DNA of 64,000 nt, taken from assembly GCA_949292905.1 (NCBI GenBank), contig CASFAV010000010.1:5074-69073 (forward strand), written 5' to 3'. A model generated the notes under the pieces. The model was not told the origin of the DNA, did not search any database, and saw only the letters and a program-made list of their open reading frames with translations. A program made the position numbers and the translations under genes. This document shows positions 3,861 to 56,685 of the stretch, piece after piece (the stretch's first letter is position 1; each line of letters starts with the position of its first letter). The stretch comes from an uncultured Eubacteriales bacterium. Lineage in GTDB: Bacteria; Bacillota; Clostridia; Christensenellales; DTU072.

Positions 3861-4988
3861 CTATATTTCCAAAGTTTCGCCGTAAGCGCTCAAGCCATTC
3901 AGCCCGGCTACGAGAGTTTTTTTGTTGCAAGCGTAGCCTATGCGGAAGCATTGAGGCTCGCCGAAGCAGTCTCCCGGCGTAACGAACACGCCTTGCGTTT
4001 CATACAGCCCGCGCGCGAAACGGTACGAAGGAATATCGTAATTATAATAGACGAGCGCTGTAGTTCCCGCAGAAGGCTTTATGTAATAGAAATTCTTTTC
4101 CCCTTTTATCCAGTCGTCGAGGATAGCAAGGTTTTCGCGCACTATGTTGCGGTTACGCGCGAATATCGCCTCTTGGTTTTTGAGCGCGAGCGCGGCGACG
4201 CGCTCGTCGAGCATACCGGAGCTAATGTGATCGTAGTCTCGGTGAGTAAGAAATCCGCGCATGGCTTTTTCGTCGCGCGTTGCGAGCCAGCCGAGCCTTA
4301 ATCCCGCCATCGAGAAGGTTTTCGACATGCTCCCTACCGAAATACCCTTCTCGTACATATCCGCTACGGACTCGGAGTAAGTATCGTCCTGCGTGAGATG
4401 ACGGTAAACTTCGTCCGCCATAAGGTACGCGCCTGCGCGGCGGGCGATCTCAACGATGTTTTCAAGCGTTTCCTCGTCTATCAACGCGCCCGAAGGATTG
4501 TTGGGATTGTTTATGCAGATAAGTGCGGTATCGTTGCCGACAAGCCTTCCGAGCTCTTCAAGATCGGGGAGAAAGGCGTTTTCTTTACGGAGTTTGAGTA
4601 TTTCCACGCGTGCGCCCAGCGAGCGCGGTATCGAATAAAGCTGTTGATAAGTGGGCATAACGCTCACGACCTTGTCGCCGGGCGAAAGAAGCGAAAGAAA
4701 GAGATGATGATTCGCTCCCGCCGCGCCGTGCGTAGTGATGACGTTTTCCCCTTTTAATCCGCGGTACAACGAAGCGATCCCCTCTTTGAGCGGCGGATAG
4801 CCGGTTATGTCGCCGTAAGTGAGTTTGAGCCCCGCAAGTTCGCTCATAAAAGCGGCTTCGTTCTCCCCCGAAAGCGCGCAAAGCTCCCTCAACGACATCG
4901 ACTCGACGCAGGTTTCGGCGATATTGTACTTCGCGCCGCCCTCGTATGCGTTCATCCACTCTTCCACTAAAAAAGGCTCGATATACAT
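3861..4988 (-). CDS. PLP-dependent aminotransferase, class I/II
   Basis: 375 aa. It carries the PLP-lysine motif SMSKTFSMAGLRLGW plus NNPNNPSG, both typical of fold-type I aminotransferases. Confidence 0.85.
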   Translation of the reverse strand: MYIEPFLVEEWMNAYEGGAKYNIAETCVESMSLRELCALSGENEAAFMSELAGLKLTYGDITGYPPLKEGIASLYRGLKGENVITTHGAAGANHHLFLSLLSPGDKVVSVMPTYQQLYSIPRSLGARVEILKLRKENAFLPDLEELGRLVGNDTALICINNPNNPSGALIDEETLENIVEIARRAGAYLMADEVYRHLTQDDTYSESVADMYEKGISVGSMSKTFSMAGLRLGWLATRDEKAMRGFLTHRDYDHISSGMLDERVAALALKNQEAIFARNRNIVRENLAILDDWIKGEKNFYYIKPSAGTTALVYYNYDIPSYRFARGLYETQGVFVTPGDCFGEPQCFRIGYACNKKTLVAGLNGLSAYGETLEI

Positions 4989-5186: not shown

Positions 5187-6704
5187 TTAAGCCTCGGCAC
5201 CCTTTTTACGCGCTTCTTTCAGCGCCGCGAGATGAGCCCTCGCGGTATCCTCCGCTTCGGCTATCGCCGCTTCCATCTTTTCTTTTTCCGCGGTAAGTTT
5301 TTCGCTTACCTTCGCTTTTTTCTCGTTGAGCTCCGCAACTTCCTCCGCACTCAGCTCGTTTTCGAGTTTCACGCGGTATTCTTCGGATTTGGTCTCCAGC
5401 CTCTCCACATAATTTTTAAGTCCTTCCACGCTGAGTTCGCCGTTGGCGACGACCTCGTTGAGCTCCGCAAGTATGGCGCGCATATCGGCTACGCAACTCC
5501 TCAACTGCTCCTCTATATCGTCGTCGAGAAGCGCGGAGATCATGCCTTCCACTCCGTCCGCAACGAGCTTCGCGCTTGCACAGGCTTGCTCCAAAAGTTC
5601 GCGGTGTTCGTCGGTAAGCTTATATATTTCCGCTTTGACTTCCGCTTCGGCTTCGCCCAAAGCCGAAGCGAGTTCGCTTTTCATTCTTTCGAGCTCCTGC
5701 CCCGCTTCGGAATTCTTGAAGCGGATATCCGCGTAATTTTCTATACTTGCAAGAGTGACCTCGCCGTCGGCGTTCTTCAGAGGCTCGTAAGAGTCCAGAC
5801 CGAGTATCGCCGCAGCGTGCGCCGCCGTGGCTTCGTCGAGCGGATATTCGAAGGTGTCCGCCGCGTAATCGGCTATGTTCGCTATATAACCTAATCCCGT
5901 CGCTCCCGCGGAATACATCTGATACACGAGTCCGTAGTAAGCGGTCAAAGGTTCCGTGATAAGCCTGTCGTAGCAGTATTCCGAGTACACTCCGCATACC
6001 GCAAGCTCCACCGCTTTATCGTAGGCGGCGGACGCGGAAGCCTTGGCTCTCACATAAGCGTCGGTAGCGAATTCCTCGATGTTGTCGCTTGCGTTTTTAA
6101 GCATTTCGATAAGATCCTTATCGTTGAGCTCCGCCGCGGCGTCGATCGATATTCCGCAAGTTTCGGATACCGAAAGTACGAGTTTGAACTTCTGAGTACT
6201 CATATTTTGTACCGCGGCGCTGTCGGGATATTCAGCTTTGGCTTCCTCGAGACGCCTCAGGAGAGAGAATGCGCCCTCGTGGTCTATCGTAACCGTAATG
6301 CCCTTCGCGGAAGCCGTCGCCGTGACGCTCGCGTCTACGGTACTCTGTATCGACGCAATATTCGCGGAGTCCTGAGCCGCCACGAGCACGCTGACCGCTT
6401 TGTTGTCCTCGTTGAGATAGCCGTAATCCACGCTCAGTTCGATTATTCTCTTGACGGCTATATCGAGTTTCTCGCCGACTATACCTGTTTCGTTATACAG
6501 AAGTACATGTCCGTCCTCGTTCTCGCCGCGCACGTTTGTCACGACGTTTTCTCCGTCCGCTATCAATTCCACGGCGGGGTTTATATCGAGACTCACATAG
6601 GCGCGATCGGCTTCGTTGTTCTCTCCGTCATCCTTCGTGCAGGCGATCAGACAGGTCGAAACCACCGCAAGCAGTAATATCGCAATAAGTATTTTCTTTT
6701 TCAT
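5187..6704 (-). CDS. secreted lipoprotein with an RsgI/anti-sigma-like extracytoplasmic module and a coiled-coil C-terminus
   Basis: 505 aa with lipobox LIAC. The N-terminal module YVSLDINPAVELIADGENVV...EDGHVLL is paralogous to the one after the TM helix of the neighbouring anti-sigma factor. The C-terminal third is E/K/A-rich and heptad-like. Confidence 0.7.
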   Translation of the reverse strand: MKKKILIAILLLAVVSTCLIACTKDDGENNEADRAYVSLDINPAVELIADGENVVTNVRGENEDGHVLLYNETGIVGEKLDIAVKRIIELSVDYGYLNEDNKAVSVLVAAQDSANIASIQSTVDASVTATASAKGITVTIDHEGAFSLLRRLEEAKAEYPDSAAVQNMSTQKFKLVLSVSETCGISIDAAAELNDKDLIEMLKNASDNIEEFATDAYVRAKASASAAYDKAVELAVCGVYSEYCYDRLITEPLTAYYGLVYQMYSAGATGLGYIANIADYAADTFEYPLDEATAAHAAAILGLDSYEPLKNADGEVTLASIENYADIRFKNSEAGQELERMKSELASALGEAEAEVKAEIYKLTDEHRELLEQACASAKLVADGVEGMISALLDDDIEEQLRSCVADMRAILAELNEVVANGELSVEGLKNYVERLETKSEEYRVKLENELSAEEVAELNEKKAKVSEKLTAEKEKMEAAIAEAEDTARAHLAALKEARKKGAEA

Positions 6705-6762
6705 GACACGTCTCCTTTGCGTTTTTCGTGATGTACCCGTTAAACACCGCAGGATATGCGTT

Positions 6763-8250
6763 TTATTGCACGCCGACGTAATTTTTCCAAAAATTTTCCG
6801 TTGAGCCGTATTCGCGGGCTATCCTGTCTAAAAATGCCGAGTATTCCGCGTCGGTAAGCGCTTCGCGCGCCGTAGCGTAGCCTTCCGAGAATACCTTCGT
6901 CCTCGTCTCGTATATCGCGGTCACGACAGAGCGCATCTCGCTTATATATTCCGCTACCGTAGTCGGCGCCTGCGACAATGCTTCGGTAAGGTTCGGATCT
7001 ATTCCCGACTTTGCGAGTATCCCGCGGTATTCGGATAACGACGATAAGATCGTCTGCGGCGTTAAATCTTCCAGTATCTTACCGAAATCTATCGCGGCAA
7101 ATTCCTCGAAGGCTTCGAATATCGCCTGTGGATCGGTGATGCTCTCTATCGCGGACGAAGCGAGCGAGAAAACGAGATCCTCGAATTCTTTGCCCGCCAA
7201 AACGGCAAAATCGTATAATTCGTCGTAAAATTCGTCTTTGGAAGTAATATCGGCGCCGAAGTTCGCGGAATAATCCGTAAGAAGCGCCTTCATTCCGTCG
7301 GTAAGCGCTCTGAACTCGTCGCTGAAATAAGCTTCGTCGAATCTCTCCGTCACGCTCCAGTAATCGGTAAGCACGGCGCTCGGATTGTCCCTCGAAAAGG
7401 TTATTTTGAGATTGAGAATGCCTATTTCCGCTAAAGCTCGCGCATTGGAAACGAAATCGTCGGTCCCGGCGAGAAGCGCGGTACGAATGTAACCGTATAA
7501 TTGCGAATTTACGATATAACTTTCGTGTAAACTCTTAAGTCCTTCGGCATTTACGCCTGCGGCGAGCCTCTCGCCGTATGCTACGGCGGCGTCTTGCATG
7601 GCGCCGACAAGATCGCTCGTCTGCTTAGCGCCCGCGACTCCGAGAATTTCGCCCATCTCGCTTACTCCGACGACATCCTCCGCCACCGCGACGTACGCTC
7701 CCTTATCCTTGAAGTAACCGCACAGATTTTCCGCCGCGTCGGATAACAATTTTTGACATTTCCCCTCGCTTCCGCTCAGGCGCACCGCGCCCGCTGCGGT
7801 ATTGAGATCGAGATATCCGAGTCTTGCGGCGGTATCCGTATATGCGACTACGGCTTCGTCGAGAGATTTACCCTTTATCGCGTTCAACGTGCTTTCGTCC
7901 GATAATACGACGTCCGCGTCCGCGTTAAGGGAATTCACGCTCAATACCTTTCCTTCCGAATCGGTCACGAAGGAAACGGCGGGATTTATCTCGAAAGCGA
8001 AAACGTAAGTTTCTTTGCTATCCGCACCGCCGAAAACGCCCGCCAGAGCAAGCGTAACAAAGACTACGACGAGCACCGCCGCTACTCCCGCAAGCCCCCA
8101 GAAACCCGCTTTCCTTCCCGAATATGCGGACTTTTCCTCACGCTTGTATTCTTTGCGCTCAGTCAAAATGGGAGCGGTGCGGACTTCGTCCGACATTTCG
8201 GGCGCCAAGGCGTCGAATTCCTTATTCAACCGCTTTTTCCAGGATGTCAT
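6763..8250 (-). CDS. membrane-spanning anti-sigma factor (RsgI-like extracytoplasmic domain)
   Basis: 495 aa. Its start overlaps the stop of the sigma gene by 4 nt (ATGA coupling). It has a short cytoplasmic N-terminus, one TM helix (FWGLAGVAAVLVVVFVTLALAGVF), and then FEINPAVSFVTDSEGKVLSVNSLNADADVVL. Confidence 0.7.
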   Translation of the reverse strand: MTSWKKRLNKEFDALAPEMSDEVRTAPILTERKEYKREEKSAYSGRKAGFWGLAGVAAVLVVVFVTLALAGVFGGADSKETYVFAFEINPAVSFVTDSEGKVLSVNSLNADADVVLSDESTLNAIKGKSLDEAVVAYTDTAARLGYLDLNTAAGAVRLSGSEGKCQKLLSDAAENLCGYFKDKGAYVAVAEDVVGVSEMGEILGVAGAKQTSDLVGAMQDAAVAYGERLAAGVNAEGLKSLHESYIVNSQLYGYIRTALLAGTDDFVSNARALAEIGILNLKITFSRDNPSAVLTDYWSVTERFDEAYFSDEFRALTDGMKALLTDYSANFGADITSKDEFYDELYDFAVLAGKEFEDLVFSLASSAIESITDPQAIFEAFEEFAAIDFGKILEDLTPQTILSSLSEYRGILAKSGIDPNLTEALSQAPTTVAEYISEMRSVVTAIYETRTKVFSEGYATAREALTDAEYSAFLDRIAREYGSTENFWKNYVGVQ

Positions 8251-8777
8251 TTCGCTTCCTCCTTTAACGCCTCTTTCAGTTTATCCACGGCGCGCTTATA
8301 TTTCGAAGTCACCGTTCCTGTGGGACAGCCGATCATCGCGGCTATCTCTCTGTGCCTGTATCCCCACACGACGTGCAGTACAACGATGCGCTGTTCCTCT
8401 TCGTCGAGCGTCTCCCTCATCGTCGTGACGAGAAGATCTTTTAGCGCCGCCCTGTCCGCAACCTCGTCGGCAACGGTTCTGCCCTCGTAAAGCTGTTTTC
8501 GCCTGCTCGCCTCCGCGCGAAGTTCGTTCAGAGCCGTATTCTTCGCTATCTCCAGTATCCACGCGAGCCCGTTCGTCCCCGGTCGGTAACTCCGGATATT
8601 GCTTTTTATCTTGAGATAAACGTTCTGCACGGCGTCCTCCGTATCGAAGCGGTTGCCGAGGTAGGTGTACACAAAAGCGTATACCCCGCGCTTCGTCTCT
8701 ATGTACAGCCTCTCGAAGGCTTCGTTGTCGCCTGCGGCTATGCGCGTAAGCATAGCGTCTATCGTATGTTTTCTCAA
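8247..8777 (-). CDS. RNA polymerase sigma factor, sigma-70/ECF family
   Basis: 176 aa. Region 2 reads AFERLYIETKRGVYAFVYTYLGNRFDTEDAVQNVYLK. The region 4 HTH reads GYRHREIAAMIGCPTGTVTSKYKRAVDKLK. Confidence 0.9.
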   Translation of the reverse strand: MRKHTIDAMLTRIAAGDNEAFERLYIETKRGVYAFVYTYLGNRFDTEDAVQNVYLKIKSNIRSYRPGTNGLAWILEIAKNTALNELRAEASRRKQLYEGRTVADEVADRAALKDLLVTTMRETLDEEEQRIVVLHVVWGYRHREIAAMIGCPTGTVTSKYKRAVDKLKEALKEEAK

Positions 8778-8940
8778 TCTGTCACCTGTACGTTAAACAC
8801 GCCCCGAACTCGAATTGTTGCATAAGCGTGTGAAAATATTATATCACAAAAAGATCGAATACCCCGTTCGCCGCTTTTAAGCCGAATACTCCGAACTCAA
8901 TTTTTTTCTTTGATATAATCGACGAGCGTTACGCCGTCTT

Positions 8941-9375
8941 TTAACGTTCTCTCCGCGCCCGTCTTTTTGTAGCCGAGTTCTCGTACAAACGGCAATTACC
9001 TTTTTCCTGCCCGATCGTATCCAACCGCCAAACCTTAATTTCGGGATAATAGCTTTCTATCTGCCGAAGCGCGCTCTGCGCGATCCCCCTGTTTCGGAAT
9101 TCCGGAAGTACCGCAAGCGCCGAAACTCTGCAAATCGCGCCTTCTTTAACTATTCTTACGCACCCGACAAAGGCATTCTCCGACATGAACAGATACCCGT
9201 CGGTATCGTGTCGGGTATACTTCGCGAGTACGACTTCTTTGCTTTCGCAATAAGGATTGGTATCGAAATCGTTATACTTTATAAACAAAGGAAAATACGC
9301 TTCCCTTTGAATATCGTAGACGGTATCGAGGTATTTATCTGTAAATGGTATTACTTTTAATTCAGTATCGTGCAT
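8941..9375 (-). CDS. GNAT-family N-acetyltransferase, 3' end apparently frameshifted
   Basis: 144 aa. The acetyl-CoA motif is LAVLPEFRNRGIAQSAL. The tail ...LYENSATKRRARRER is unlike a GNAT, whereas a 1-nt frame change at about 8978 yields a canonical LGYKKTGAERTLKDGVTLVDYIKEKN ending at 8897. Confidence 0.8.
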   Translation of the reverse strand: MHDTELKVIPFTDKYLDTVYDIQREAYFPLFIKYNDFDTNPYCESKEVVLAKYTRHDTDGYLFMSENAFVGCVRIVKEGAICRVSALAVLPEFRNRGIAQSALRQIESYYPEIKVWRLDTIGQEKGNCRLYENSATKRRARRER

Positions 9376-9448
9376 GCAATTTATATGATTCAGCTTTTAG
9401 GTCGGGTGAATTTTAATAATTGTAATGGTAAAATACCACTTTGTCAAT

Positions 9449-9951
9449 ATTAAGGCGCGCCAAGAAAAAGGGAGTGCCTTGACGGTACTCCCGGCGCGCC
9501 TGTTCTTAAGGAACAGCGGCAGTTGCTTTTGTACGGATATATTCTTTTCGTCTTTGTATATTGTTTAGTTTTTGATATACTGTAGCAGTTTTCGCCGGGT
9601 TTCGCCCTATCGGGCGAAACTAACGCATCCCGCCGCAACGCATTTATTGCGTTGCGGCGGACAAGTGCTTATTAAGGCGCGCAAAAAAGGGAGCACCACG
9701 ACGGTGCTCCCTTTTGGCGCGCCTTAAGGAACAGCGGCAGTTGCTTTTGTACGGATATATTCTTTTCGTCTTTGTATATTTTTTGCTTTTTGATATGCTT
9801 CGGCGGTTTGCCGCCAGGTTTCGCCCTATCGGGCGAAACTAACGCATCCCCCCGCAACGCAATAAATGCGTTGCGGGGGACAAGTGCTTATTAAGGCGCG
9901 CAAAAAAGGGAGCACCACAACGGTGCTCCCTTTTGGCGCGCCTTAAGGAAC
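9449..9951. repeat. tandem ~220-bp repeat array (2 full units plus 1 partial) abutting tRNA-Arg
   Basis: Unit 1 spans 9449..9670, unit 2 spans 9671..9889, and partial unit 3 (9890..9951) runs into the tRNA. Each unit holds an 18-nt copy of the tRNA 3' end, which is degenerate in unit 1. Each also carries a terminator-like hairpin (gggagcacc/ggtgctccc), a 9-bp hairpin (gtttcgccc/gggcgaaac) and a 13-bp hairpin (ccgccgcaacgca/tgcgttgcggcgg). Confidence 0.9.
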
Positions 9952-10010
9952 TCGAATCCCTAACCTTTGGTTCCGTAGACCAACGCTCTATCCAATTGAG
10001 CTAAAGGCGC
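9934..10010 (-). tRNA. tRNA-Arg (anticodon ACG), CCA encoded
   Basis: The reverse complement is GCGCCTTTAGCTCAATTGGATAGAGCGTTGGTCTACGGAACCAAAGGTTAGGGATTCGAGTTCCTTAAGGCGCGCCA, which folds as a cloverleaf. It has a 7-bp acceptor stem, GCTC/GAGC D stem and TTGGT/ACCAA anticodon stem. The anticodon loop is CTACGGA, the T stem is AGGGA/TCCTT, and the T loop is TTCGAGT. Confidence 0.92.
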
Positions 10011-10108
10011 ATATTCGATGGCGCTCGCTTACCGAGCACAATCGATATTATAGCCGCTTATGCGGGCTTTGTCAAATATTTTCCTATCTTATTTTCAAAA
10101 CCTCTCGC

Positions 10109-11017
10109 TTACTTCGCGTAAAGCTCGTCGAGGAATTCGTAGACCGTCTTCATCGTCTCCTTGCTCGCCTTCGTCCAGTAATTGAAGTGGTAGCAATGGT
10201 TGTCGATGAGCTTCACAGAATGGGCTTCGCGCACGGGTACGCCCGCCGCTTTCAGTTTATCGAAAAGTATCTCGCCGTGTCCTTTGCAGAATACGTCCTT
10301 TTTCGCCATGGTGAGCACGGTAGGGCACCAATCGGAATTGACGAATACCGAAGGGCTCACCTCGTTGATATACTCGTAATCCCTGACGTTGGAAAAATCT
10401 TTCTTGAGCTTCATTCCGAGGAAGCTCTCCCCTATCGAACGCACCAGACCGAACGGGAGTTTAGCGCCCATCGCCGCCACGAGGTCGTACGGTCCGCAGA
10501 AGCATACCATTCCCGCGGGTTTCACGTTACATTCGGGCATTCCGAGTTTTGCGGAAAGCTCGGGATTGGTGATGACCGCTTCCGTTTCCGCCGCGGCGTA
10601 TGCGCCCGCGGAATCGCCCGTCGTCACCACTTTCGTGAGGTCGAGATCGTATTTCTCGGCAAGCTTCGGCAGGTAATTGAGCGCGTCGATGCAGTCCTCT
10701 ATCACGTCGGGGAAGGCGTATTTAGGGCTCAATCTGTAATTTATGTTCATTACGAACCATCCCCTGTCCGCGTAAAGATGCGATATGCTCTTACGGTGTT
10801 TCTTGTCGCCCTTGACGAAGCCGCCGCCGTGGATATTGACTATTACGGGCATCGGCTTTTTGGCGCCCTCTTTATAATAAACGTCGAATTTGCAATCTTC
10901 GTAACGGTCGTCGTAAGAAAAATTCTTCTCGCATATCACGCCCTTCCTGCTTATGTAGTTCTGCATCGGGTGGAATAGTACGTCTATCGCCGCGAAAATG
11001 AATTCTGCTCTGTTCAT
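10109..11017 (-). CDS. alpha/beta-hydrolase, esterase/lipase (HSL-like family)
   Basis: 302 aa. It has the oxyanion motif HGGGF and the nucleophile elbow GDSAG. Confidence 0.85.
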   Translation of the reverse strand: MNRAEFIFAAIDVLFHPMQNYISRKGVICEKNFSYDDRYEDCKFDVYYKEGAKKPMPVIVNIHGGGFVKGDKKHRKSISHLYADRGWFVMNINYRLSPKYAFPDVIEDCIDALNYLPKLAEKYDLDLTKVVTTGDSAGAYAAAETEAVITNPELSAKLGMPECNVKPAGMVCFCGPYDLVAAMGAKLPFGLVRSIGESFLGMKLKKDFSNVRDYEYINEVSPSVFVNSDWCPTVLTMAKKDVFCKGHGEILFDKLKAAGVPVREAHSVKLIDNHCYHFNYWTKASKETMKTVYEFLDELYAK

Positions 11018-11073
11018 TACGTTTCTCCTCCGTAAAAGTAATATATGCGCCGATAATTCTCGGGATAACGCGG

Positions 11074-11616
11074 TTATCTCTGGATCACGGTGATGAATTT
11101 TGCGAATTTCTCCATCGCGACCTGCGCGTGGGGAAGGGTAGCGTCGAAATAGAGGCTGTCGCCGCTACGGAGATAATATTCCTTCTCGCCCACTATGACG
11201 CGGAGCGAGCCCTCGAGCACGTAGTTGAATTCCTGTCCCGTGTGTTTGACAAGCTCCGGAGTGACTCCCTCTTCTATGGTCACTATCATGGGCTCAAGCT
11301 CGCGGTCGACGAAATCGGCGTTCAACGATATGAACGAATACCCCTCGTAACGCTGTATGCTGATGCCGTTGCCGCCGTAAACCGCGGTGGCGTCACGCTT
11401 GGTGGCGCCTTTGCCGAAAAGCACGAACGTGGGGTCGATCTCGAGCACCGTGGAAATATTATACAAAAGCCCTATCGGGATATCTTTTTCGCCCGATTCG
11501 TATTCCGCGTATTCTTCGGGGGTGATGCCCACTTTCTGAGCGAACTCCTCTATCGTGTAATCGGAGAATTCTCTGAGATCCTTTATTCTTGCCGAAACTT
11601 CTTTGATGTTATACAT
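11074..11616 (-). CDS. XRE-family HTH regulator with C-terminal cupin domain
   Basis: 180 aa. The N-terminal HTH is YTIEEFAQKVGITPEEYAEYESGEKDIPIGLLYNISTVLEID. The C-terminal cupin is GQEFNYVLEGSLRV...GDSLYFDATLPH. Confidence 0.85.
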   Translation of the reverse strand: MYNIKEVSARIKDLREFSDYTIEEFAQKVGITPEEYAEYESGEKDIPIGLLYNISTVLEIDPTFVLFGKGATKRDATAVYGGNGISIQRYEGYSFISLNADFVDRELEPMIVTIEEGVTPELVKHTGQEFNYVLEGSLRVIVGEKEYYLRSGDSLYFDATLPHAQVAMEKFAKFITVIQR

Positions 11617-11619
11617 ATT

Positions 11620-12177
11620 CTATCTCCCGTACGGAAATTGTTTGTTTCTGCGTCTTCCCTCTTTCATTTTGAACTTGGCGGGTTCTATTTTCTTTTTGAC
11701 GAACTCGCAGAATTCTATAAAAGTGCCGGTAGTCATATTGTCGTAGCGGATATAATACGCGAGCGCCGCGCCGCAATAGATATATACTCTGTCCTTGCGA
11801 AGCGCCACTCTTTCCACTCTGTCGTAGGAAAACTTTTCCGTATACGGCTTTTCGCCGTTCTCCTCGAGCGTTTCCACGGAGAATTCTTCTTCGTAAAAGG
11901 TGAATTTCCATTCGCGCGTGTTGCGTTTGACGAATTCCTCCCGGTAACCCTTACGCGCGAGCGCGATATACACGACGATAGCCGCCGCCATAAGAATGAC
12001 GGTAACGCCGCACAATACGAGGATAAGCCACTGGTTGAACGCGAAAAACAGCACCAGTCCTCCGATAAGCAGAAAGCCCACGAGGATATATTCCTTGACG
12101 CCTACGAACTTCTTGAGATAGTAGAGAGTGCAGGCGTTATAATCTTTCGCGTTGATGTCTACGGTAGCTTCGAACAT
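11620..12177 (-). CDS. YcxB-like two-TM membrane protein
   Basis: 185 aa. It has two adjacent TM helices followed by a soluble domain, and sits 3 nt upstream of the XRE-cupin gene. The family assignment comes from overall architecture only. Confidence 0.55.
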   Translation of the reverse strand: MFEATVDINAKDYNACTLYYLKKFVGVKEYILVGFLLIGGLVLFFAFNQWLILVLCGVTVILMAAAIVVYIALARKGYREEFVKRNTREWKFTFYEEEFSVETLEENGEKPYTEKFSYDRVERVALRKDRVYIYCGAALAYYIRYDNMTTGTFIEFCEFVKKKIEPAKFKMKEGRRRNKQFPYGR

Positions 12178-12188
12178 TTTTTCACCGA

Positions 12189-14159
12189 TCAGGAGAGCTT
12201 CAGAGTGGGATACACTCCGGCTTGCACGTTGAGGTTATTGAGATTCCAGTAATCGGTGCTGAAACCGAGGCTCGTCGTGTAGAAACTCGCGTTGTTGAGA
12301 TAGTTGTAACTTATTTCGTCCACGGAATTGTAGCCCGACGAAGTGTCGTATACCGCGCCGTTGCGGGTGACGGTAACGTCGGGCGCGACGTAAACTCTCA
12401 TGTAGTCGGCGCTCGAAGTAAGCGCCGTGCTGTGACCGACGAAGTTGTCGCCGTAAGCCACGTTATGCGTATAAGTCTCGTCGCCTACCGCGGCGTCGGA
12501 AGCGGAGCGGTGCGAAATGGCGTCGACGTCGCCGAAGCCCACGCAGTTACGGATATAAAGTTCGTATGCCTGACCTATGAAATTGCCCGCGAAAACGGCG
12601 TAGAAAACGTTTGCGGTATATTCGTTGCCTTCGTAATCCTTGAAAACGGTGGTGGAGGCGTTGGCTTCCACGGCGCCGTAAGCGAGGCAGTTCTCTATCA
12701 TGAAGAACGTCGTGGCGCTCGTGGCGTGCTCCGCGTCGTGGTCGTAAACGGTATCGTCGAAATCGGGTCTGCCGAGGTAAGGAAGATCGGAGACCGCCCT
12801 GCCCACGAGTCCGCCCGCGTATTCGGAAGCGAATACGTCGCCCGAGGCGTAGCAGTTCGAGATGGTGCCGCCTTCCGCGGTCTCGAAGTCGAAAATGTTG
12901 ACGCCGACGAGTCCGCCCGCGGTGCGCGCTTGCGCGTGACCGGTCGCGTAACAAGCGCTGATAGAACCCGCATTATAATTGTAAGCCACGAGACCGCCCG
13001 CGATAGCCGGATAAGAGAGCGAGCCCTCCACGTCTCCTATGGCGAAAGAGGCGCTCACCGTGCCGTTGTTGTAGCCGATGAGTCCGCCGGCGTATCTGCC
13101 GTAGACGGTAACCGCCGAATTGCAGTTGCTGAGCGAGCTCGGCTCGTGTATACTGACGTTCTCGCCTTCCTCGTCGTAGGAGCCCACGTACCCCGCAACT
13201 CCGCCGAAGTAAACGTTTTCTTCGTTGCTTTGGGAAGTGATCTTACCTTCGGTAGAGACCTTGGAGACGGTGCTGCCCTGCACGTAGCCCACGGCGCCGC
13301 CGCAATACAAACTCGTGGTCGGTTCCGCATAACTGCCGAGTAAGGAATCCCAAATGCCGCCTTCGTAGTCGATCTCTGGGTTATTGAATTCGCCTATCGC
13401 GACGCAATTGGACATGCTCGCGCGGCTCAACCAGCCGACAATGCCGCCTATGTAGAAGCGCGACTGGTCTCCGTCCAGCTCGATATAATAATCGACGAGC
13501 GTCACGTTACGGATGGTGCCGGTGACCTTGCCGAAAAGCCCTATCGGAAGATAATTGAATTCCTCGTCCGCTTCGAGACCTTTGATCGTCATACCGCTTA
13601 TGACGTAGCCGTTGCCGTCGAATGTGCCGGAGAATTCGTTACCCTCTTCGAAGCCTCCTATCGGCTCCCAGCTCTCTATCTGCGAAAGATCTATATCCGC
13701 GCCGAGCGCGTAATTTCCGGAAGGCTTCTGCGCTATGTCGGCGAGCTCTTCCGCGGTGGTTATCCTTATCGTGGTGTTGGCTATCCACTTGGCGTACAGC
13801 GTGGTGTTGCGCGTGAATTCGTATCCCGCGATGATCTTGCTTCCGGCGTAATCGGAAGTGAGATACCAGCCTTCGAATGTATAGCCGGGCTTGTTTTTTG
13901 CGTCAGGAGTGGGGATCTGAGACTGCAAAAGTATGCGCGTCTCTATCGCGGGGAAAGTTTCGGAGGTGCCCGTAACGAAGGAGATCACGTAGCTGACCTC
14001 GGCGGGAGGGTCGTCGTTTTGCGGCGCGTTCAGAAGCGCGGGCGTCACCTCGCTCTCGTCAGCGCTCGCGCCCCATGCGCCGCATCCCGTGAGCAGGACG
14101 CTTGCCGCAATTACCGCGACTAAAAGAATTAAGATGCTTTTACTTTTGAAACGGCGCAT
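12189..14159 (-). CDS. surface lipoprotein with a Listeria-Bacteroides repeat and GLUG-motif beta-helix region
   Basis: 656 aa with lipobox LTGC. One canonical repeat reads YVISFVTG...KPGYTFEGWYLTSDY...NTTLYAKW. It is followed by many GG(I/L/V)(V/A)G(Y/W) GLUG-type motifs (GGIVGW, GGAVGY, GGVAGY, GGLIGYN, GGLVAYN, GGLVGV, GGLVGR). Confidence 0.8.
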   Translation of the reverse strand: MRRFKSKSILILLVAVIAASVLLTGCGAWGASADESEVTPALLNAPQNDDPPAEVSYVISFVTGTSETFPAIETRILLQSQIPTPDAKNKPGYTFEGWYLTSDYAGSKIIAGYEFTRNTTLYAKWIANTTIRITTAEELADIAQKPSGNYALGADIDLSQIESWEPIGGFEEGNEFSGTFDGNGYVISGMTIKGLEADEEFNYLPIGLFGKVTGTIRNVTLVDYYIELDGDQSRFYIGGIVGWLSRASMSNCVAIGEFNNPEIDYEGGIWDSLLGSYAEPTTSLYCGGAVGYVQGSTVSKVSTEGKITSQSNEENVYFGGVAGYVGSYDEEGENVSIHEPSSLSNCNSAVTVYGRYAGGLIGYNNGTVSASFAIGDVEGSLSYPAIAGGLVAYNYNAGSISACYATGHAQARTAGGLVGVNIFDFETAEGGTISNCYASGDVFASEYAGGLVGRAVSDLPYLGRPDFDDTVYDHDAEHATSATTFFMIENCLAYGAVEANASTTVFKDYEGNEYTANVFYAVFAGNFIGQAYELYIRNCVGFGDVDAISHRSASDAAVGDETYTHNVAYGDNFVGHSTALTSSADYMRVYVAPDVTVTRNGAVYDTSSGYNSVDEISYNYLNNASFYTTSLGFSTDYWNLNNLNVQAGVYPTLKLS

Positions 14160-14195
14160 ACGCTCTCCCGAATATATATTTAATTATACGCGAAT

Positions 14196-14224
14196 AGTAT
14201 AGCACAACGGGTAAAGGCTTGCAA
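14196..14224 (-). promoter_or_regulatory. sigma-70-type promoter for the 12189..14159 operon
   Basis: The minus strand reads TTGCAA-17 nt-TATACT, about 35 nt upstream of the ATG at 14159. Confidence 0.55.
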
Positions 14225-14259
14225 TACTTTTTTTCGGCGATTTACTATTCATATACTTC

Positions 14260-15111
14260 CTATTCGCCGAGCGCGTCAAGGATATGTTCGGCGAATTTAC
14301 CCGCCACGTTGACGCCGCTCACGCTCTCTATACCCTCGAAATAGGCGTTGGAATTCACCTCGAGAAGCAATGGCTCGCCACGCTCGCCTTCGAGAAGATC
14401 CACGCCGCAGTAGTCGGCGCCCACGCGCGCGGCGGCGATCTCCGCCATACGGAAAAAGCTTGCGTCGGGCACGAATTTTTCCGCGGTGCCTCCCGCCGCG
14501 ATGTTGGAGAGGAACCCCGTAGTGTTACGCCTTCTCATAGACGCGACCGCCTTGCCGCCTATCACCGCTATACGCACGTCCGTACCCGCCGAAGAAGCGA
14601 CGAAGCGCTGATAATGATGCGGCACCGACGAAAATTCCGTCATCGCGGCTTCCAGCTCTTCCCTGCTTACGATAAGCCTCGTACCTATTCCCAAAGAGCC
14701 CACGTTCAATTTGAATATCATCGGCAATCCGAGCGTTTGTATAACCTTTTCCGCTTCTTCGGATACCCGTATACGCATTTTAGAAAGATCGCTGTAACAC
14801 AGCGGCGCATAGATCGTCTGCGGTACCGCCACGCCTTCTCCCTCCACGGCGAGGTAAGTTAAAGTTTTGTCCTCGCATATACGGATAGTTTCCGACGAGT
14901 TGAAAACGCGCATGCCTTTTTTCTCGAACTCCGCGGCGAGCCTGACGTCTTTGTCGAGGAATACGACAAAGTCCGCCGAAGGATATTCCGCGCAAAGCGC
15001 ATTGGGGAATACCTCCAATTCCGCGCCGAATCTTGAGAATTCTTCTTTGAGCCGCATTGCCTGTTGCGAGCCTATCCCGCTGTAACCGTTCACGATCGCT
15101 ATACCGTACAT
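14260..15111 (-). CDS. ATP-grasp ligase, RimK family
   Basis: ATP-grasp motifs are present (GLPMIFKLNVGSLGIGTRL, SNIAAGGTAEKF, GADYCGVDLL...LLLEVNSNAYFEG). I prefer the start at M12 (15111) because GAGGTG precedes it; the track ORF extends to 15144. Confidence 0.8.
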   Translation of the reverse strand: MYGIAIVNGYSGIGSQQAMRLKEEFSRFGAELEVFPNALCAEYPSADFVVFLDKDVRLAAEFEKKGMRVFNSSETIRICEDKTLTYLAVEGEGVAVPQTIYAPLCYSDLSKMRIRVSEEAEKVIQTLGLPMIFKLNVGSLGIGTRLIVSREELEAAMTEFSSVPHHYQRFVASSAGTDVRIAVIGGKAVASMRRRNTTGFLSNIAAGGTAEKFVPDASFFRMAEIAAARVGADYCGVDLLEGERGEPLLLEVNSNAYFEGIESVSGVNVAGKFAEHILDALGE

Positions 15112-15181
15112 TTCACACCTCGCGCTTATTTTAACACACTTCACGCGCTTTTACAAGCACGCGCCGCGCCGATTTTCCCTA

Positions 15182-55764: not shown

Positions 55765-56618
55765 AATCCCTCCGCAAGTTCTTCGTCGGTAAGCGCAAAC
55801 GGTATGTCGAGCCCCGCGCGCCTCAGTTCCGCGGATATTTTGCTCGCCACCGGCAATTCCAGCTTCGCCTCAGCTATCTTATCGGTGGAGGAGAAAACCT
55901 CGCGAGGCGTGCCTTCGAGTATCACGCTCCCTTCGTTCATCACGAATATCCTGTCTGCGCCTATCGCTTCGTCCATGTAATGCGTGATAAGTATCACGGT
56001 TAGTCCTTTCTCTTTGTTGAGCCGCAATATGGTCTCCATTATCTCCGCGCGACCTTTCGGATCCAGCATCGCCGTCGATTCGTCGAGGATAAGCACCTCG
56101 GGATACATCGCCAGTATCGCGGCTATCGCTATGCGCTGTTTCTGTCCCCCCGAAAGCTTGTTGGGACTGCGCTTACGGTGTTCGCTCATATTGACGGCGT
56201 CGAGCGCCCACGTTATGCGTTTCTCTATCTCTTCGCGCGGCACGCCGAGATTTTCGGGTCCGAAAGCTATGTCGTTCTCTATCACGGACGCCACCATCTG
56301 GTTGTCTGCATTCTGGAATACCATTCCCACTTTGGCACGCAGTTCGTATATGCGGTCGTTGTCGCGGGTGTCTATCCCTTCGACGGTAACGGTGCCTTCG
56401 TCGGGGACGACGAATCCGTTGAGCAATTTCGCGAGCGTGGACTTGCCGGAACCGTTGTGCCCGAGCAGCACGACGAATTCGCCCCTGTCTACGGTGAGGC
56501 TCACGTTACGCACTCCGCGCGAAACGTGTTCGCCGCTACGGTAATCGTAGCTGACGTTGTCTACTCGGATAATGGCGCCCGCCGCCGCGGGCATTGATTC
56601 GCGTTCCGTTCCGCTCAT
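55749..56618 (-). CDS. ecfA1: energy-coupling factor transporter ATPase
   Basis: 289 aa with Walker A (GHNGSGKST), signature LSGGQKQRIAIAA and Walker B (VLILDESTAMLD). Confidence 0.9.
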   Translation of the reverse strand: MSGTERESMPAAAGAIIRVDNVSYDYRSGEHVSRGVRNVSLTVDRGEFVVLLGHNGSGKSTLAKLLNGFVVPDEGTVTVEGIDTRDNDRIYELRAKVGMVFQNADNQMVASVIENDIAFGPENLGVPREEIEKRITWALDAVNMSEHRKRSPNKLSGGQKQRIAIAAILAMYPEVLILDESTAMLDPKGRAEIMETILRLNKEKGLTVILITHYMDEAIGADRIFVMNEGSVILEGTPREVFSSTDKIAEAKLELPVASKISAELRRAGLDIPFALTDEELAEGLCRLK

Positions 56619-56685
56619 AATTCAATAGTCTATCATAACGTAGGAATTTACACAATTAAATTAAGGGCACAACCCGTAAATTAAC

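What the first reader, a model, noticed from the sequence alone, without database searches (positions are those of the whole stretch)
9449..10010. ~220-bp tandem repeat array fused to tRNA-Arg(ACG), each unit re-copying the tRNA 3' end, with compensatory hairpin changes
**Array layout**
- Immediately downstream of the tRNA on the minus strand lie two full units and one partial unit (9449..9670, 9671..9889, 9890..9951).
- The 18 nt TGGCGCGCCTTAAGGAAC at 9934..9951 (T-loop end, T stem, acceptor 3' strand and CCA) recur exactly at 9715..9732. They recur again with a 5-nt insertion at about 9493..9514.
- Every unit also copies the terminator hairpin after the tRNA, a 9-bp hairpin and a 13-bp hairpin.

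**Evidence that structure is conserved between units**
- The terminator stem changes from gggagTGcc/ggTActccc to gggagCAcc/ggTGctccc.
- The 13-bp stem changes from ccGccgc.../...gcggCgg to ccCccgc.../...gcggGgg.
- Its 5-nt loop is exactly reverse-complemented between units (tttat versus ataaa).
- A fourth hairpin (ggcgg-tttg-ccgcc) exists only in unit 2.

**End pairing and interpretation**
- Each unit starts GCGCGCCTTAA and ends TTAAGGCGCGCCA on the minus strand, so its ends can pair like an extended acceptor stem.
- These features fit none of a simple att scar, a CRISPR array or a known riboswitch.
- The array could be serial recombination scars at a tRNA attachment site, or an array of tRNA-linked structured RNAs.
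Basis: seen in the sequence. Interest (0 to 1): 0.6.

Follow-up and report, generated by a model that had tools for sequence, protein, structure and literature searches.

The report
Structured tRNA-derived repeats behind tRNA-Arg
A tRNA-Arg gene in an uncultured gut Clostridia genome is followed by tandem 219-bp copies of a folded, tRNA-derived trailer that keep re-copying the tRNA's 3' end; related units lie behind the same tRNA in other gut bacteria, and the layout matches the poorly understood RtT repeats behind tRNA-Tyr in E. coli.

Summary
tRNA-Arg(ACG) lies at 9934..10010 on the minus strand. It is followed by two 219-bp units (92% alike) and a degenerate third start.

Each unit holds, in order: an exact 17-nt copy of the tRNA 3' end, a terminator hairpin, an inverted (5'-acceptor-like) copy of that end, and two to three GC-rich hairpins.

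It is not an att scar, a CRISPR array, a dispersed element or an assembly artefact.

Orthologous loci in related MAGs carry the same trailer with 0 to 3 repeats, and each re-copied end matches its own tRNA's acceptor variant.

A metagenome scan of tRNA-Arg(ACG) genes found a direct re-copy of the 3' end in 18 of 64 loci, against 0 of 21 other tRNAs. The units there have periods of 121-181 nt and form a five-helix fold:
- 94% of cells are paired.
- 13 pairs carry double changes.
- G·U outnumbers A·C by 58 to 13, which favours RNA made from the tRNA strand.

A covariance model built from those units hits the window's units only weakly. No Rfam family matches.

The closest known thing is E. coli tyrT/RtT, which has the same architecture but no homology. 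Whether the units are transcribed, and what they do, is untested. I rate this a new variant of a known kind, of moderate to high interest.

The parts
10047..10075 (-). Promoter of the tRNA gene: TTGACA, 17 nt, TATAAT
   Evidence: 12 of 12 consensus match. It is conserved in L001, L007 and L113.
9934..10010 (-). tRNA-Arg(ACG) gene with encoded CCA. Acceptor stem is GCGCCTT/AAGGCGC.
   Evidence: ARAGORN. Rfam tRNA model, 64.4 bits.
9902..9933 (-). Terminator hairpin 1: AAAGGGAGCACC-GTTGT-GGTGCTCCCTTTTTT
   Evidence: Inverted repeat I14 and the sequence. The simple terminator scan did not call it, probably because A/T pairs extend the stem into the T-run.
9891..9901 (-). Unit A 5' strand of closing helix P1: GCGCGCCTTAA. 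It is complementary to the tRNA 3' end and resembles the tRNA 5' acceptor strand.
   Evidence: An isolated unit folds with this 11-bp closure.
9849..9879 (-). Unit A hairpin hp2: 13-bp stem, loop TTTAT. It corresponds to P2/P3 of the wider family.
   Evidence: Inverted repeat I16. The R2 alignment places it on P2/P3.
9818..9839 (-). Unit A hairpin hp3: GTTTCGCCC-GATA-GGGCGAAAC. It corresponds to P5.
   Evidence: Covariation across related loci: 7 of 12 pairs with double changes.
9802..9815 (-). Hairpin found in unit A only: GGCGG-CAAA-CCGCC on the minus strand
   Evidence: It is absent from unit B.
9733..9801 (-). A+T-rich segment of unit A. Its last ~50 nt are identical in unit B.
   Evidence: family D2.
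9715..9731 (-). First exact re-copy of the tRNA 3' end (TTCCTTAAGGCGCGCCA). It forms the 3' strand of unit A's closing helix.
   Evidence: direct copy at +219 with 0 mismatches.
9685..9714 (-). Terminator hairpin 2 (loop GTCGT)
   Evidence: Inverted repeat I13.
9672..9682 (-). Unit B 5' strand of P1: GCGCGCCTTAA
9630..9660 (-). Unit B hairpin hp2. The loop is inverted (ATAAA) and one stem pair is flipped relative to unit A.
   Evidence: Inverted repeat I15.
9599..9620 (-). Unit B hairpin hp3
   Evidence: Inverted repeat I5. The R2 hit 9590..9687 aligns it to P5.
9515..9598 (-). Variable plus A+T-rich segment of unit B
9493..9514 (-). Degenerate second re-copy of the tRNA 3' end: TTCCTTAAG-AACAG-GCGCGCC, with no terminal A
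9466..9492 (-). Terminator hairpin 3: GGGAGTACC-GTCAA-GGCACTCCC plus a T-run. It has one A·C mismatch on this strand.
   Evidence: Family D3.
9450..9461 (-). Terminal inverted copy GGCGCGCCTTAA. This is the end of the array.
9419..9447 (-). Promoter-like site (TTGACA, 17 nt, TACAAT) for the next gene, a GNAT acetyltransferase at 8941..9375. It is not part of the repeat but abuts it.

Best explanation
**What it is.** The region is a tRNA-Arg(ACG) gene followed by tandem copies of a structured trailer unit that descends from an old duplicate of the tRNA gene.

**What each unit keeps.** Each unit retains the two acceptor-stem strands of the parent tRNA:
- a 5'-acceptor-like strand placed right after the terminator T-run;
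- the last 17-21 nt of the tRNA at the unit's 3' end.

The interior has been replaced by GC-rich hairpins.

**How the array changes (inferred).**
- Units are gained and lost by unequal recombination or replication slippage between units.
- Gene conversion, selection or both keep the re-copied ends identical to the functional tRNA.

**How it probably works (inferred, not shown).**
1. RNA polymerase sometimes reads through the terminator after the tRNA.
2. Each unit folds on the tRNA-sense strand, its two ends pairing into an acceptor-like closing helix around the internal hairpins.
3. tRNA-processing enzymes release it as a stable tRNA-mimicking RNA, as is reported for RtT RNA from the E. coli tyrT operon.

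Its cellular role is unknown. Candidates are modulation of tRNA processing or of the starvation response.
For: **Anatomy.**

**Vertical inheritance with variable repeat number.** Orthologous esterase-tRNA loci at 63-97% esterase identity carry the same order of elements: terminator, inverted copy, hp2, then the motif GGGATGC..GTTT-hairpin-AAAC CTGAYGA.

| Locus | State |
|---|---|
| L012, L110, L113 | no re-copy |
| L011 | re-copy at +217 |
| L108/L109 (two independent assemblies) | three units |

**Concerted evolution.** The re-copied end matches its own tRNA across at least five acceptor variants: AAGG, AAGC, AGGG, ATGG and CGGG.

**Specificity.** The re-copy occurs in 18 of 64 tRNA-Arg(ACG) loci and in 0 of 21 other tRNAs. 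Chance expectation is about 0.001 per locus, by my calculation.

**Structure.**
- 12 units: 96.9% of cells paired and 7 pairs with double changes, against at most 1 in the slid controls.
- 22 units: 94.1% paired, with 13 pairs and 58 cells carrying double changes, against at most 7 pairs and 8 cells in the slid controls.
- hp3 in the window's own clade: 7 of 12 pairs with double changes.

**Strand.** 58 G·U cells against 13 A·C cells, giving 94.1% paired on the sense strand and 87.0% on the antisense.

**Link to the window.** Model R2 hits 9715..9908 (21.4 bits) and 9590..9687 (18.2 bits). The second is the best hit in the whole 64-kb window, E = 0.003.

**tRNA descent.**
- Type II units contain AGGGATTCGTGCTC, matching the tRNA T-arm AGGGATTCGAGYTC.
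- Type I units begin GCGCCC..AGCTCGAGTTGG, matching the tRNA's GCGCCCTTAGCTCAATTGG.
- The unit models weakly hit the true tRNA genes, 15-21 bits.

**Operon-like arrangement in L068.** The inner units have lost the left arm of the terminator, and a fresh terminator follows the last unit.

**Precedent.** At E. coli tyrT the tRNA-Tyr 3' 19-mer recurs exactly, with three copies at 178-bp spacing downstream of tyrV. rttR ends at the first copy's CCA. PMC4986893 and PMC3318445, citing Bösl and Kersten 1991, report that RtT is released from tRNA operon transcripts.
Against: - There is no expression data of any kind.
- In the window every unit is preceded by a strong-looking terminator (9-13 bp stem, T6), and no promoter-like site lies inside the units. 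Transcription would therefore depend on read-through.
- In a tRNA-plus-unit transcript the minimum-energy fold prefers the local palindrome (tRNA 3' end, terminator, inverted copy) over the closing helix.
- Some relatives (L012, L110, L113, L026) keep the trailer without any re-copied 3' end, so the closing helix is not universal.
- The terminal CCA is lost in many inner units.
- Homology between the window's 219-nt units and the compact 105-135-nt units rests on weak scores and shared element order.
- The A3 alignment was fitted to the model, which inflates paired percentages somewhat.
- Hairpin 'covariation' within a genome can arise from DNA palindrome correction, as the hybrid stem in L007 and L113 shows.
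Confidence: 0.6

Rival explanations
1. The units are decaying pseudogenes. A tRNA-Arg gene and its terminator were duplicated in tandem. The extra copies are neutral DNA, kept partly uniform by gene conversion and by palindrome correction at the DNA level. No RNA product matters.
For: - Repeat number varies from 0 to 3 among relatives, and several lineages have truncated or reduced trailers.
- CCA is often lost in inner units.
- Terminators separate the units in the window.
- The hybrid, mismatched hp2 in L007 and L113 is the kind of intermediate expected from template-switch correction of a quasi-palindrome.
Against: - New helices that are not part of a tRNA (P2-P5) keep pairing through double substitutions across many lineages.
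- The G·U over A·C excess is strand-specific, which DNA-level processes do not predict.
- Sequence blocks such as GGGATGC and AAACCTGA are invariant across loci whose neighbouring esterase is only 63-73% identical.
Confidence: 0.25
2. The units are serial att scars, or miniature non-autonomous integrative elements. Each unit would be the remnant of an element that integrated into the T-loop/3' end of tRNA-Arg and duplicated that end, as in tandem islands at tRNA or tmRNA genes.
For: - The re-copied segment (17-21 nt, from T-loop to CCA) is the size of a T-loop-type att duplication.
- This tRNA is used as an integration site in related bacteria.
  - A partial tRNA-Arg copy plus a unit lies next to a MobA/VirD2 relaxase gene in L076, on the same contig as the intact gene in L037.
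  - Copies starting at the anticodon loop occur in L057, L089 and L094.
- Tandem islands bounded by 20-bp repeats of the ssrA 3' end are documented in Dehalococcoides (PMC3146451).
Against: - The units are 121-330 bp and hold no credible gene.
- They are paralogues of one another (92% in the window).
- They are orthologous at the same locus across species.
- The nine neighbouring ORFs scanned against Pfam (5187..15144) include no integrase.
- Viral-contig hits to the 17-mer are chance coding matches, and the hairpin 22-mer gives none.
- Phage and plasmid BLAST matches cover only the tRNA.
- The closing strand, the internal helices and the G·U bias are not explained.
Confidence: 0.08
3. The tandem array is an assembly artefact, and the real locus has a single trailer.
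For: - A near-identical assembly (L001) shows one unit only.
- Short-read contigs break in the region.
- All the data are metagenome assemblies.
Against: - Units A and B differ at 17 substitutions and 4 gapped positions, so they are not a duplicated read path.
- The junction 'A+T-rich segment -> perfect 3' copy -> terminator' can only exist if a second unit follows.
- Unit B joined to the terminal copy is seen in an independent assembly, 297/297 identical (L004).
- Equivalent arrays occur in unrelated assemblies and species: L011, L108 = L109, L068, L079, L048 and L032.
Confidence: 0.04

Closest known systems
RtT RNA / the 178-bp repeats of the E. coli tyrT-tyrV operon (Rfam RF00391; gene rttR)
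   Same: - A tRNA gene is followed, on the same strand, by tandem units of about 180-220 bp.
- Each unit ends in an exact copy of the last 17-19 nt of the tRNA, including CCA.
- Each unit has an internal segment complementary to that copy: GGGGAAGGAT pairs with ATCCTTCCCC in RtT, and GCGCGCCTTAA pairs with TTAAGGCGCGC here.
- Both have a T-arm-like remnant upstream of the copy: AAGGTTCGACTC in RtT and AGGGATTCGTGCTC in type II units.
- RtT is reported to be released from tRNA operon transcripts by processing (PMC4986893 and PMC3318445, citing Bösl and Kersten 1991).
   Different: - There is no sequence or model similarity. RF00391 gives no hit here even at E up to 10, while it scores 133-137 bits on E. 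coli.
- The parent tRNA differs: Arg-ACG here, Tyr in E. coli.
- The phylum differs: Clostridia here, Gammaproteobacteria there.
- In the window an intrinsic terminator hairpin is part of every unit.
- No tpr-like ORF is conserved here.
Tandem genomic islands bounded by repeats of a tRNA or tmRNA 3' end (for example Dehalococcoides ssrA islands, PMC3146451)
   Same: Direct repeats of the 3' end of a small-RNA gene recur downstream of the intact gene. The duplicated segment starts in the T-loop.
   Different: - Those repeats bound kilobase-sized islands that are not duplicated within a strain and often carry integrase modules.
- Here the intervals are 121-330 bp, non-coding, mutually homologous and structured.
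tRNA-like RNA domains (tmRNA, YrlA-type Y RNAs)
   Same: An acceptor-like helix is formed by the 5' and 3' ends of a longer RNA, with tRNA-derived sequence at the 3' end.
   Different: - ARAGORN finds only the one tRNA-Arg and no tmRNA, and no Rfam family other than that tRNA reaches its gathering score here.
- The window's units have no intact T-arm.
- The units are tandemly repeated next to the parent tRNA.

Membership tests
RtT RNA (Rfam RF00391) | A match to the RF00391 covariance model at or above its gathering score of 45 bits | tested here: not met
   There is no RtT hit in 9000..10500 even at E up to 10, nor in nine related loci. As a positive control, four hits of 133-137 bits were found at the E. 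coli tyrT locus.
RtT RNA (Rfam RF00391) | Tandem units downstream of a tRNA gene on the same strand, each ending in an exact copy of the tRNA 3' end | tested here: met
   In the window the 17-mer recurs at +219 with 0 mismatches and again in degenerate form at about +438. In E. coli the tRNA-Tyr 19-mer recurs exactly, three times at 178-bp spacing downstream of tyrV.
RtT RNA (Rfam RF00391) | Released as a discrete RNA from the tRNA operon transcript | not testable with these tools
   This needs RNA-seq, Northern blots or end mapping. For RtT it is known only from the literature (PMC4986893, PMC3318445).
tRNA-Arg(ACG)-linked structured repeat family defined here (models R1/R2) | A significant match to the five-helix covariance model built from 22 units | tested here: inconclusive
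   Window 9715..9908 scores 21.4 bits (E about 1e-5 in 2.5 kb). Window 9590..9687 scores 18.2 bits and is the best hit in the whole window, E = 0.003. Compact units score 45-107 bits. E-values are rough because calibration was shortened.
tRNA-Arg(ACG)-linked structured repeat family defined here (models R1/R2) | The same order of elements after the tRNA: A-run, terminator, T-run, strand complementary to the tRNA 3' end, long hairpin, GGGAT(T)CG-type block, TTTGC..GCAAA hairpin, CCT | tested here: met
   Direct comparison of the window with L041, L077 and L091 and with L011-L013, L108 and L110.
Serial att scars / tandem integrative elements at a tRNA gene | Intervals between the repeated 3' ends are unrelated cargo DNA, usually with an integrase or other mobility genes | tested here: not met
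   The intervals are 219-bp paralogues, 92% alike. Their only ORFs start at TTG and run through the hairpins. The nine neighbouring ORFs scanned encode an esterase, a GNAT, an ECF sigma factor, RsgI-like proteins and the like, and none is an integrase.
Serial att scars / tandem integrative elements at a tRNA gene | A matching attP in a phage, plasmid or other mobile element | tested here: not met
   Viral contigs gave three chance coding matches to the 17-mer and none to the hairpin 22-mer. In phage and plasmid BLAST only the tRNA itself matches.
Dispersed repeat (MITE / REP-like element) | Many copies at unrelated sites in the genome | tested here: inconclusive
   In the 64-kb window the motif occurs only in the array. 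The palindrome pattern found a single locus among 185,579 species genomes. The hairpin 22-mer is absent from the metagenome contigs. The complete source genome was not available.
CRISPR array | Short (24-48 nt) identical repeats separated by unique spacers of similar length | tested here: not met
   The whole 219-bp period is repeated at 92% identity. There are no unique spacers.
tRNA gene | A cloverleaf recognised by ARAGORN or by Rfam RF00005 | tested here: not met
   Only one tRNA is called in the window and in each related locus. The units are not called.

The most novel reading that the evidence does not exclude
The units may belong to a widespread, undescribed family of tRNA-derived, tRNA-mimicking RNAs in gut Clostridia. 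On this reading they are made by read-through of the tRNA-Arg terminator and cut out by tRNA-processing enzymes. They would have arisen independently of E. coli RtT but share its design: acceptor strands retained, hairpins inserted in the T-loop region, and tandem amplification. That would point to a general and still unexplained function for 'tRNA shadows' behind tRNA genes, for example titrating a tRNA-binding enzyme or sensor.
Probability: 0.4. Interest if true: 0.75.

Novelty: new variant of a known kind. Interest (0 to 1): 0.6.

Why it matters
RtT, the repeat RNA behind E. coli tRNA-Tyr, was described in 1991 (Bösl and Kersten), and a 2024 preprint still calls its mode of action unknown. 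A second, unrelated family with the same design gives a comparative handle on what such tRNA-derived trailers do. This one sits in another phylum, behind another tRNA, with clear covariation.

It also matters for practice:
- These arrays break short-read assemblies at tRNA-Arg loci.
- They could be mistaken for att scars when genomic islands are mapped.
- They are not covered by Rfam, so they go unannotated in gut metagenome genomes.

Tried and rejected
- **Hammerhead-like core.** The conserved CTGAYGA after hp3 looked like a hammerhead core. No stem II, GAAA or cleavage-site arrangement fits, and Rfam hammerhead models give nothing.
- **Small ORFs in the units.** ORFs at 9672..9857 and 9450..9638 on the minus strand start at TTG, run through hairpins and terminators, and are not conserved in other unit types.
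- **Phage attP.** The three viral-contig hits to the 17-mer lie inside unrelated sequence with no tRNA.
- **Exact 22-mer of hp3.** It gave no hit in viral or metagenome contigs, so a tRNA-based pattern was used instead.
- **Esterase orthologues at 66-67% identity** (L014-L020). They have no tRNA next to the gene and were not informative.
- **MAFFT alignment of units against the tRNA**. It misplaced the T-arm, so the claim of tRNA descent rests on directly visible 12-of-14 and 19-of-24 matches, not on that alignment.
- **R2 hit at 56513..56625.** It lies inside a coding gene and is taken as chance.
- **Internal promoter.** None was found inside the units.
- **Bösl and Kersten 1991.** The paper could not be read because it is not held.
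Full report
**1. What is in the sequence**

A single tRNA gene, tRNA-Arg(ACG), lies at 9934..10010 on the minus strand (ARAGORN; Rfam tRNA model, 64.4 bits). A perfect TTGACA-17-TATAAT promoter sits at 10075..10047.

Reading on along the minus strand, the tRNA is followed by these elements:
- a hairpin with flanking A- and T-runs (AAAGGGAGCACC-GTTGT-GGTGCTCCCTTTTTT);
- the 11-mer GCGCGCCTTAA, the exact reverse complement of the tRNA's TTAAGGCGCGC;
- a 13-bp hairpin;
- a 9-bp hairpin;
- a short variable hairpin;
- about 70 nt of A+T-rich sequence;
- an exact copy of the last 17 nt of the tRNA, TTCCTTAAGGCGCGCCA.

The whole series then repeats. A third copy of the tRNA end is degenerate (5-nt insertion, no final A). 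It is followed by a variant terminator and a last inverted copy, and this abuts the promoter of the next gene, a GNAT acetyltransferase.

TRF reports a 219-bp period, 2.0 copies, 92% identity. Two small corrections concern the third terminator and the weight given to the 'compensatory' changes within the array; both are in the observation check.

**2. Is the array real?**

Units A and B differ at 17 substitutions and 4 gapped positions.

| Assembly | What it shows |
|---|---|
| L004 | Starts inside unit B and runs into the GNAT gene; 297/297 identical |
| L001 | Flanks differ at 4 of 8.2 kb; tRNA, unit A, then the terminal copy, so one unit fewer |
| Several Logan contigs and L007 | Contigs stop inside the tRNA or the repeat |

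The last ~50 nt of A and B are identical, so L001 may simply be a collapsed assembly.

The junction 'A+T-rich segment, perfect 3' copy, terminator' can only exist if a second unit follows. Equivalent junctions occur in unrelated assemblies (L011; L108 and L109, which agree with each other).

The array is real. Its exact copy number in the population is open.

**3. Relatives at the same locus**

The neighbouring esterase gene was used to fetch orthologous loci. In the subclade where the tRNA follows the esterase (63-97% protein identity), the same series of elements is present:
- an A-run, a hairpin and a T-run, with a different stem sequence in each species;
- a strand complementary to that species' own tRNA 3' end;
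- a hairpin ending ...GGG;
- the invariant blocks GGGATGC and GTTT...AAAC CTGAYGA.

In these species the acceptor stem is GCGGCTT/AAGCCGC, not GCGCCTT/AAGGCGC. Both the inverted strand and the re-copied 3' end follow that change.

Repeat number varies:

| Locus | State |
|---|---|
| L012, L110 | No re-copy |
| L113 | Trailer cut after the second hairpin, next to a TIR/NACHT gene |
| L011 | A re-copy at +217, then the contig ends |
| L108/L109 | Three units, one enlarged by an internal ~20-nt tandem repeat |

The trailer is therefore inherited vertically at this locus, and the repeat number is labile.

hp3 shows double substitutions at 7 of 12 pairs across these loci.

L007 and L113 are two independent assemblies of a species whose esterase DNA is 89% identical to the window's over the 3' 500 nt compared (measured for L007). 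Both carry a mismatched hybrid of the A-type and B-type 13-bp stem. For this reason I do not count the A/B differences within the window as evidence for RNA selection. Correction of a quasi-palindrome during replication would produce the same pattern, including the inverted loop.

**4. A wider family behind tRNA-Arg(ACG)**

The second metagenome scan used a pattern for the T-arm and 3' end of this tRNA and returned 86 loci, many of them labelled human-gut metagenome.

- Among tRNA-Arg(ACG) genes with at least 150 nt of downstream sequence, the last 17 nt recur downstream (3 or fewer mismatches within 600 nt) in 18 of 64.
- The same test gives 0 of 21 for other tRNAs in the fetched loci.
- Chance expectation is about 0.001 per locus (my calculation from the 17-mer match probability).
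- Periods are 121-181 nt, with one to three units.
- ARAGORN calls at most one tRNA-Arg in each locus (none in L057 and L076, which carry only partial copies), so the copies are not full genes.
- The re-copied end matches its own tRNA in at least five acceptor variants.

Twelve compact units align well. They fold into a closing helix P1 (the strand after the T-run pairs with the re-copied tRNA end), a long arm P2/P3, and hairpins P4 and P5.

| Alignment | Cells paired | Double changes | Slid controls |
|---|---|---|---|
| 12 units (A1) | 96.9% | 7 pairs | at most 1 pair |
| 22 units (A3, model-fitted) | 94.1% | 13 pairs, 58 cells | at most 7 pairs, 8 cells |

G·U cells outnumber A·C cells 58 to 13, so the structure is better on the tRNA-sense strand (94.1% paired) than on its complement (87.0%). 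This is what an RNA made in the tRNA's direction predicts and what a DNA-level palindrome does not.

All strong model hits lie downstream of the tRNA on its strand.

In L068 the inner units have lost the left arm of the terminator, and a new terminator follows the last unit. That looks like one transcription unit behind a leaky first terminator.

**5. Are the window's units part of that family?**

Model R2, built from the 22 compact units, hits the window at two places:
- 9715..9908, 21.4 bits. P1 is aligned to GCGCGC.../...GGCGCGC and P2/P3 to the 13-bp hairpin.
- 9590..9687, 18.2 bits. P2/P3 is aligned to the 13-bp hairpin and P5 to the 9-bp hairpin.

The second is the best hit in the whole 64-kb window, E = 0.003. 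L013 scores 17.4 bits.

The order and spacing of elements match those of L041, L077 and L091 closely. I take this as probable distant homology. The window's units look like an enlarged version in which about 90 nt, mostly A+T-rich, separate P5 from the 3' copy.

**6. Origin**

Several unit types still show tRNA sequence beyond the 3' end.

| Unit type | Sequence in the unit | Matching tRNA sequence |
|---|---|---|
| L048, L041, L091 | AGGGATTCGTGCTC, then two inserted hairpins, then CTCCTTATGGCGCGC | T-stem and T-loop AGGGATTCGAGYTC |
| L032-type | Begins GCGCCC..AGCTCGAGTTGG | GCGCCCTTAGCTCAATTGG |
| L108, L011 | Mini T-arm GGAG-TGG-CTCC before the copy | T-arm |

The unit models also hit the true tRNA genes weakly.

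The simplest history has four steps:
1. A tandem duplication of the tRNA gene with its terminator.
2. Replacement of the interior of the downstream copy by new hairpins.
3. Retention of both acceptor strands.
4. Further tandem amplification and loss.

**7. Comparison with what is known**

No Rfam 15 family other than tRNA reaches its gathering score in the window region, and none other than tRNA matches nine related loci at E up to 0.1.

The closest known case is the E. coli tyrT operon. In K-12 the 19-nt 3' end of tRNA-Tyr recurs exactly six times:
- at the ends of tyrT and tyrV;
- once in the tyrT-tyrV spacer;
- three times at 178-bp spacing downstream.

The annotated sRNA rttR ends at the first downstream copy's CCA. 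Rfam's RtT model hits four units at 133-137 bits.

The RtT unit also contains a segment complementary to the copied end and a T-arm-like remnant, both visible in the sequence.

The literature held here describes RtT as released from tRNA operon transcripts during processing, with effects on the stringent response. Family members lie next to other tRNA genes in Pasteurellaceae (PMC4986893; PMC3318445, both citing Bösl and Kersten 1991, which I could not read).

The window's array works like RtT in its architecture, but it fails the RF00391 membership test and shares no sequence with it.

**8. Rivals**

- **Att scars.** This tRNA is an integration site in related bacteria. L076 holds a partial tRNA copy plus a unit beside a relaxase gene. 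But the units are short, non-coding and paralogous, the neighbours scanned include no integrase, and no phage or plasmid counterpart was found.
- **Neutral pseudogene decay.** This explains the variable copy number and the truncated versions. It does not explain the covariation in new helices or the G·U bias.
- **Assembly artefact.** Excluded for the existence of the array, but not for its exact copy number.

**9. What is shown and what is inferred**

Shown:
- the anatomy;
- inheritance at the locus;
- concerted evolution of the copied ends;
- a family of related units specific to tRNA-Arg(ACG) in this sample of loci;
- covariation and strand bias in the compact units;
- the architectural match to tyrT/RtT.

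Inferred:
- read-through transcription;
- folding with the closing helix, which in a tRNA-plus-unit transcript competes with the local palindrome;
- processing by tRNA enzymes;
- any cellular role.

**Verdict.** This is a real, RtT-like array of tRNA-derived structured trailer repeats, and a new variant of a known kind. Interest 0.6.

Noticed in passing
L076 6909..8866, on the same metagenome contig as L037: A partial tRNA-Arg copy lacks the true 5' acceptor strand, so ARAGORN does not call it. It is followed by a unit very similar to L037's, differing at only a few positions, and lies next to a MobA/VirD2-type relaxase gene. This suggests a mobilizable element integrated at tRNA-Arg that carries the tRNA 3' part together with the trailer unit.
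   Followed up: partly
L057, L089, L094, L051 (metagenome loci): These loci hold tRNA-Arg fragments that begin at the anticodon loop (…CTACGGAACCAAAGG…CCA), preceded by unrelated sequence. That is typical of att duplications by an anticodon-loop-type integrase. L057's fragment is also followed by a unit.
   Followed up: no
L113 4252..6909: In one strain of the sister species the trailer is cut right after the second hairpin. Beyond the cut is a large gene with Sel1, TIR and (weaker) NACHT matches on the opposite strand, which may be a defence-type insertion. The GNAT gene is not there.
   Followed up: no
L108 about 4440..4560: The second unit of this three-unit array contains its own internal tandem repeat of about 20-22 nt (GCATATCATCAATGC(R)AAGCATT…, several copies), which enlarges the unit to about 330 nt.
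   Followed up: no
window 9536..9583: TRF also reports a weak 19-nt tandem repeat (2.5 copies, 76% matches) inside the A+T-rich part of unit B.
   Followed up: no
window 5187..8777: Downstream of the GNAT gene lies an ECF-type sigma factor gene followed by two large paralogous proteins, each with an RsgI-like anti-sigma central domain.
   Followed up: no
L107 (E. coli K-12, NC_000913.3 1285800..1288200): Each RtT unit contains AAGGTTCGACTC, a near copy of the tRNA-Tyr T-arm. It also contains GGGGAAGGAT, which is complementary to the re-copied ATCCTTCCCC. RtT units therefore also look like degenerate tRNA copies with an insertion in the T-loop region.
   Followed up: partly
L048 7076..7160: The tRNA 3' end, the terminator and the inverted copy together form a palindrome of roughly 35 bp per arm, with a single mismatch I could find by eye (GTTCCTTATGGCGCGCCACGCAAAAGGGATACGGCA | CTGCCGTATCCCTTTTGCGTGGCGCGCCGTAAGGAAAC). 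In a read-through RNA this would be a long, nearly perfect duplex that includes the tRNA acceptor 3' strand.
   Followed up: no
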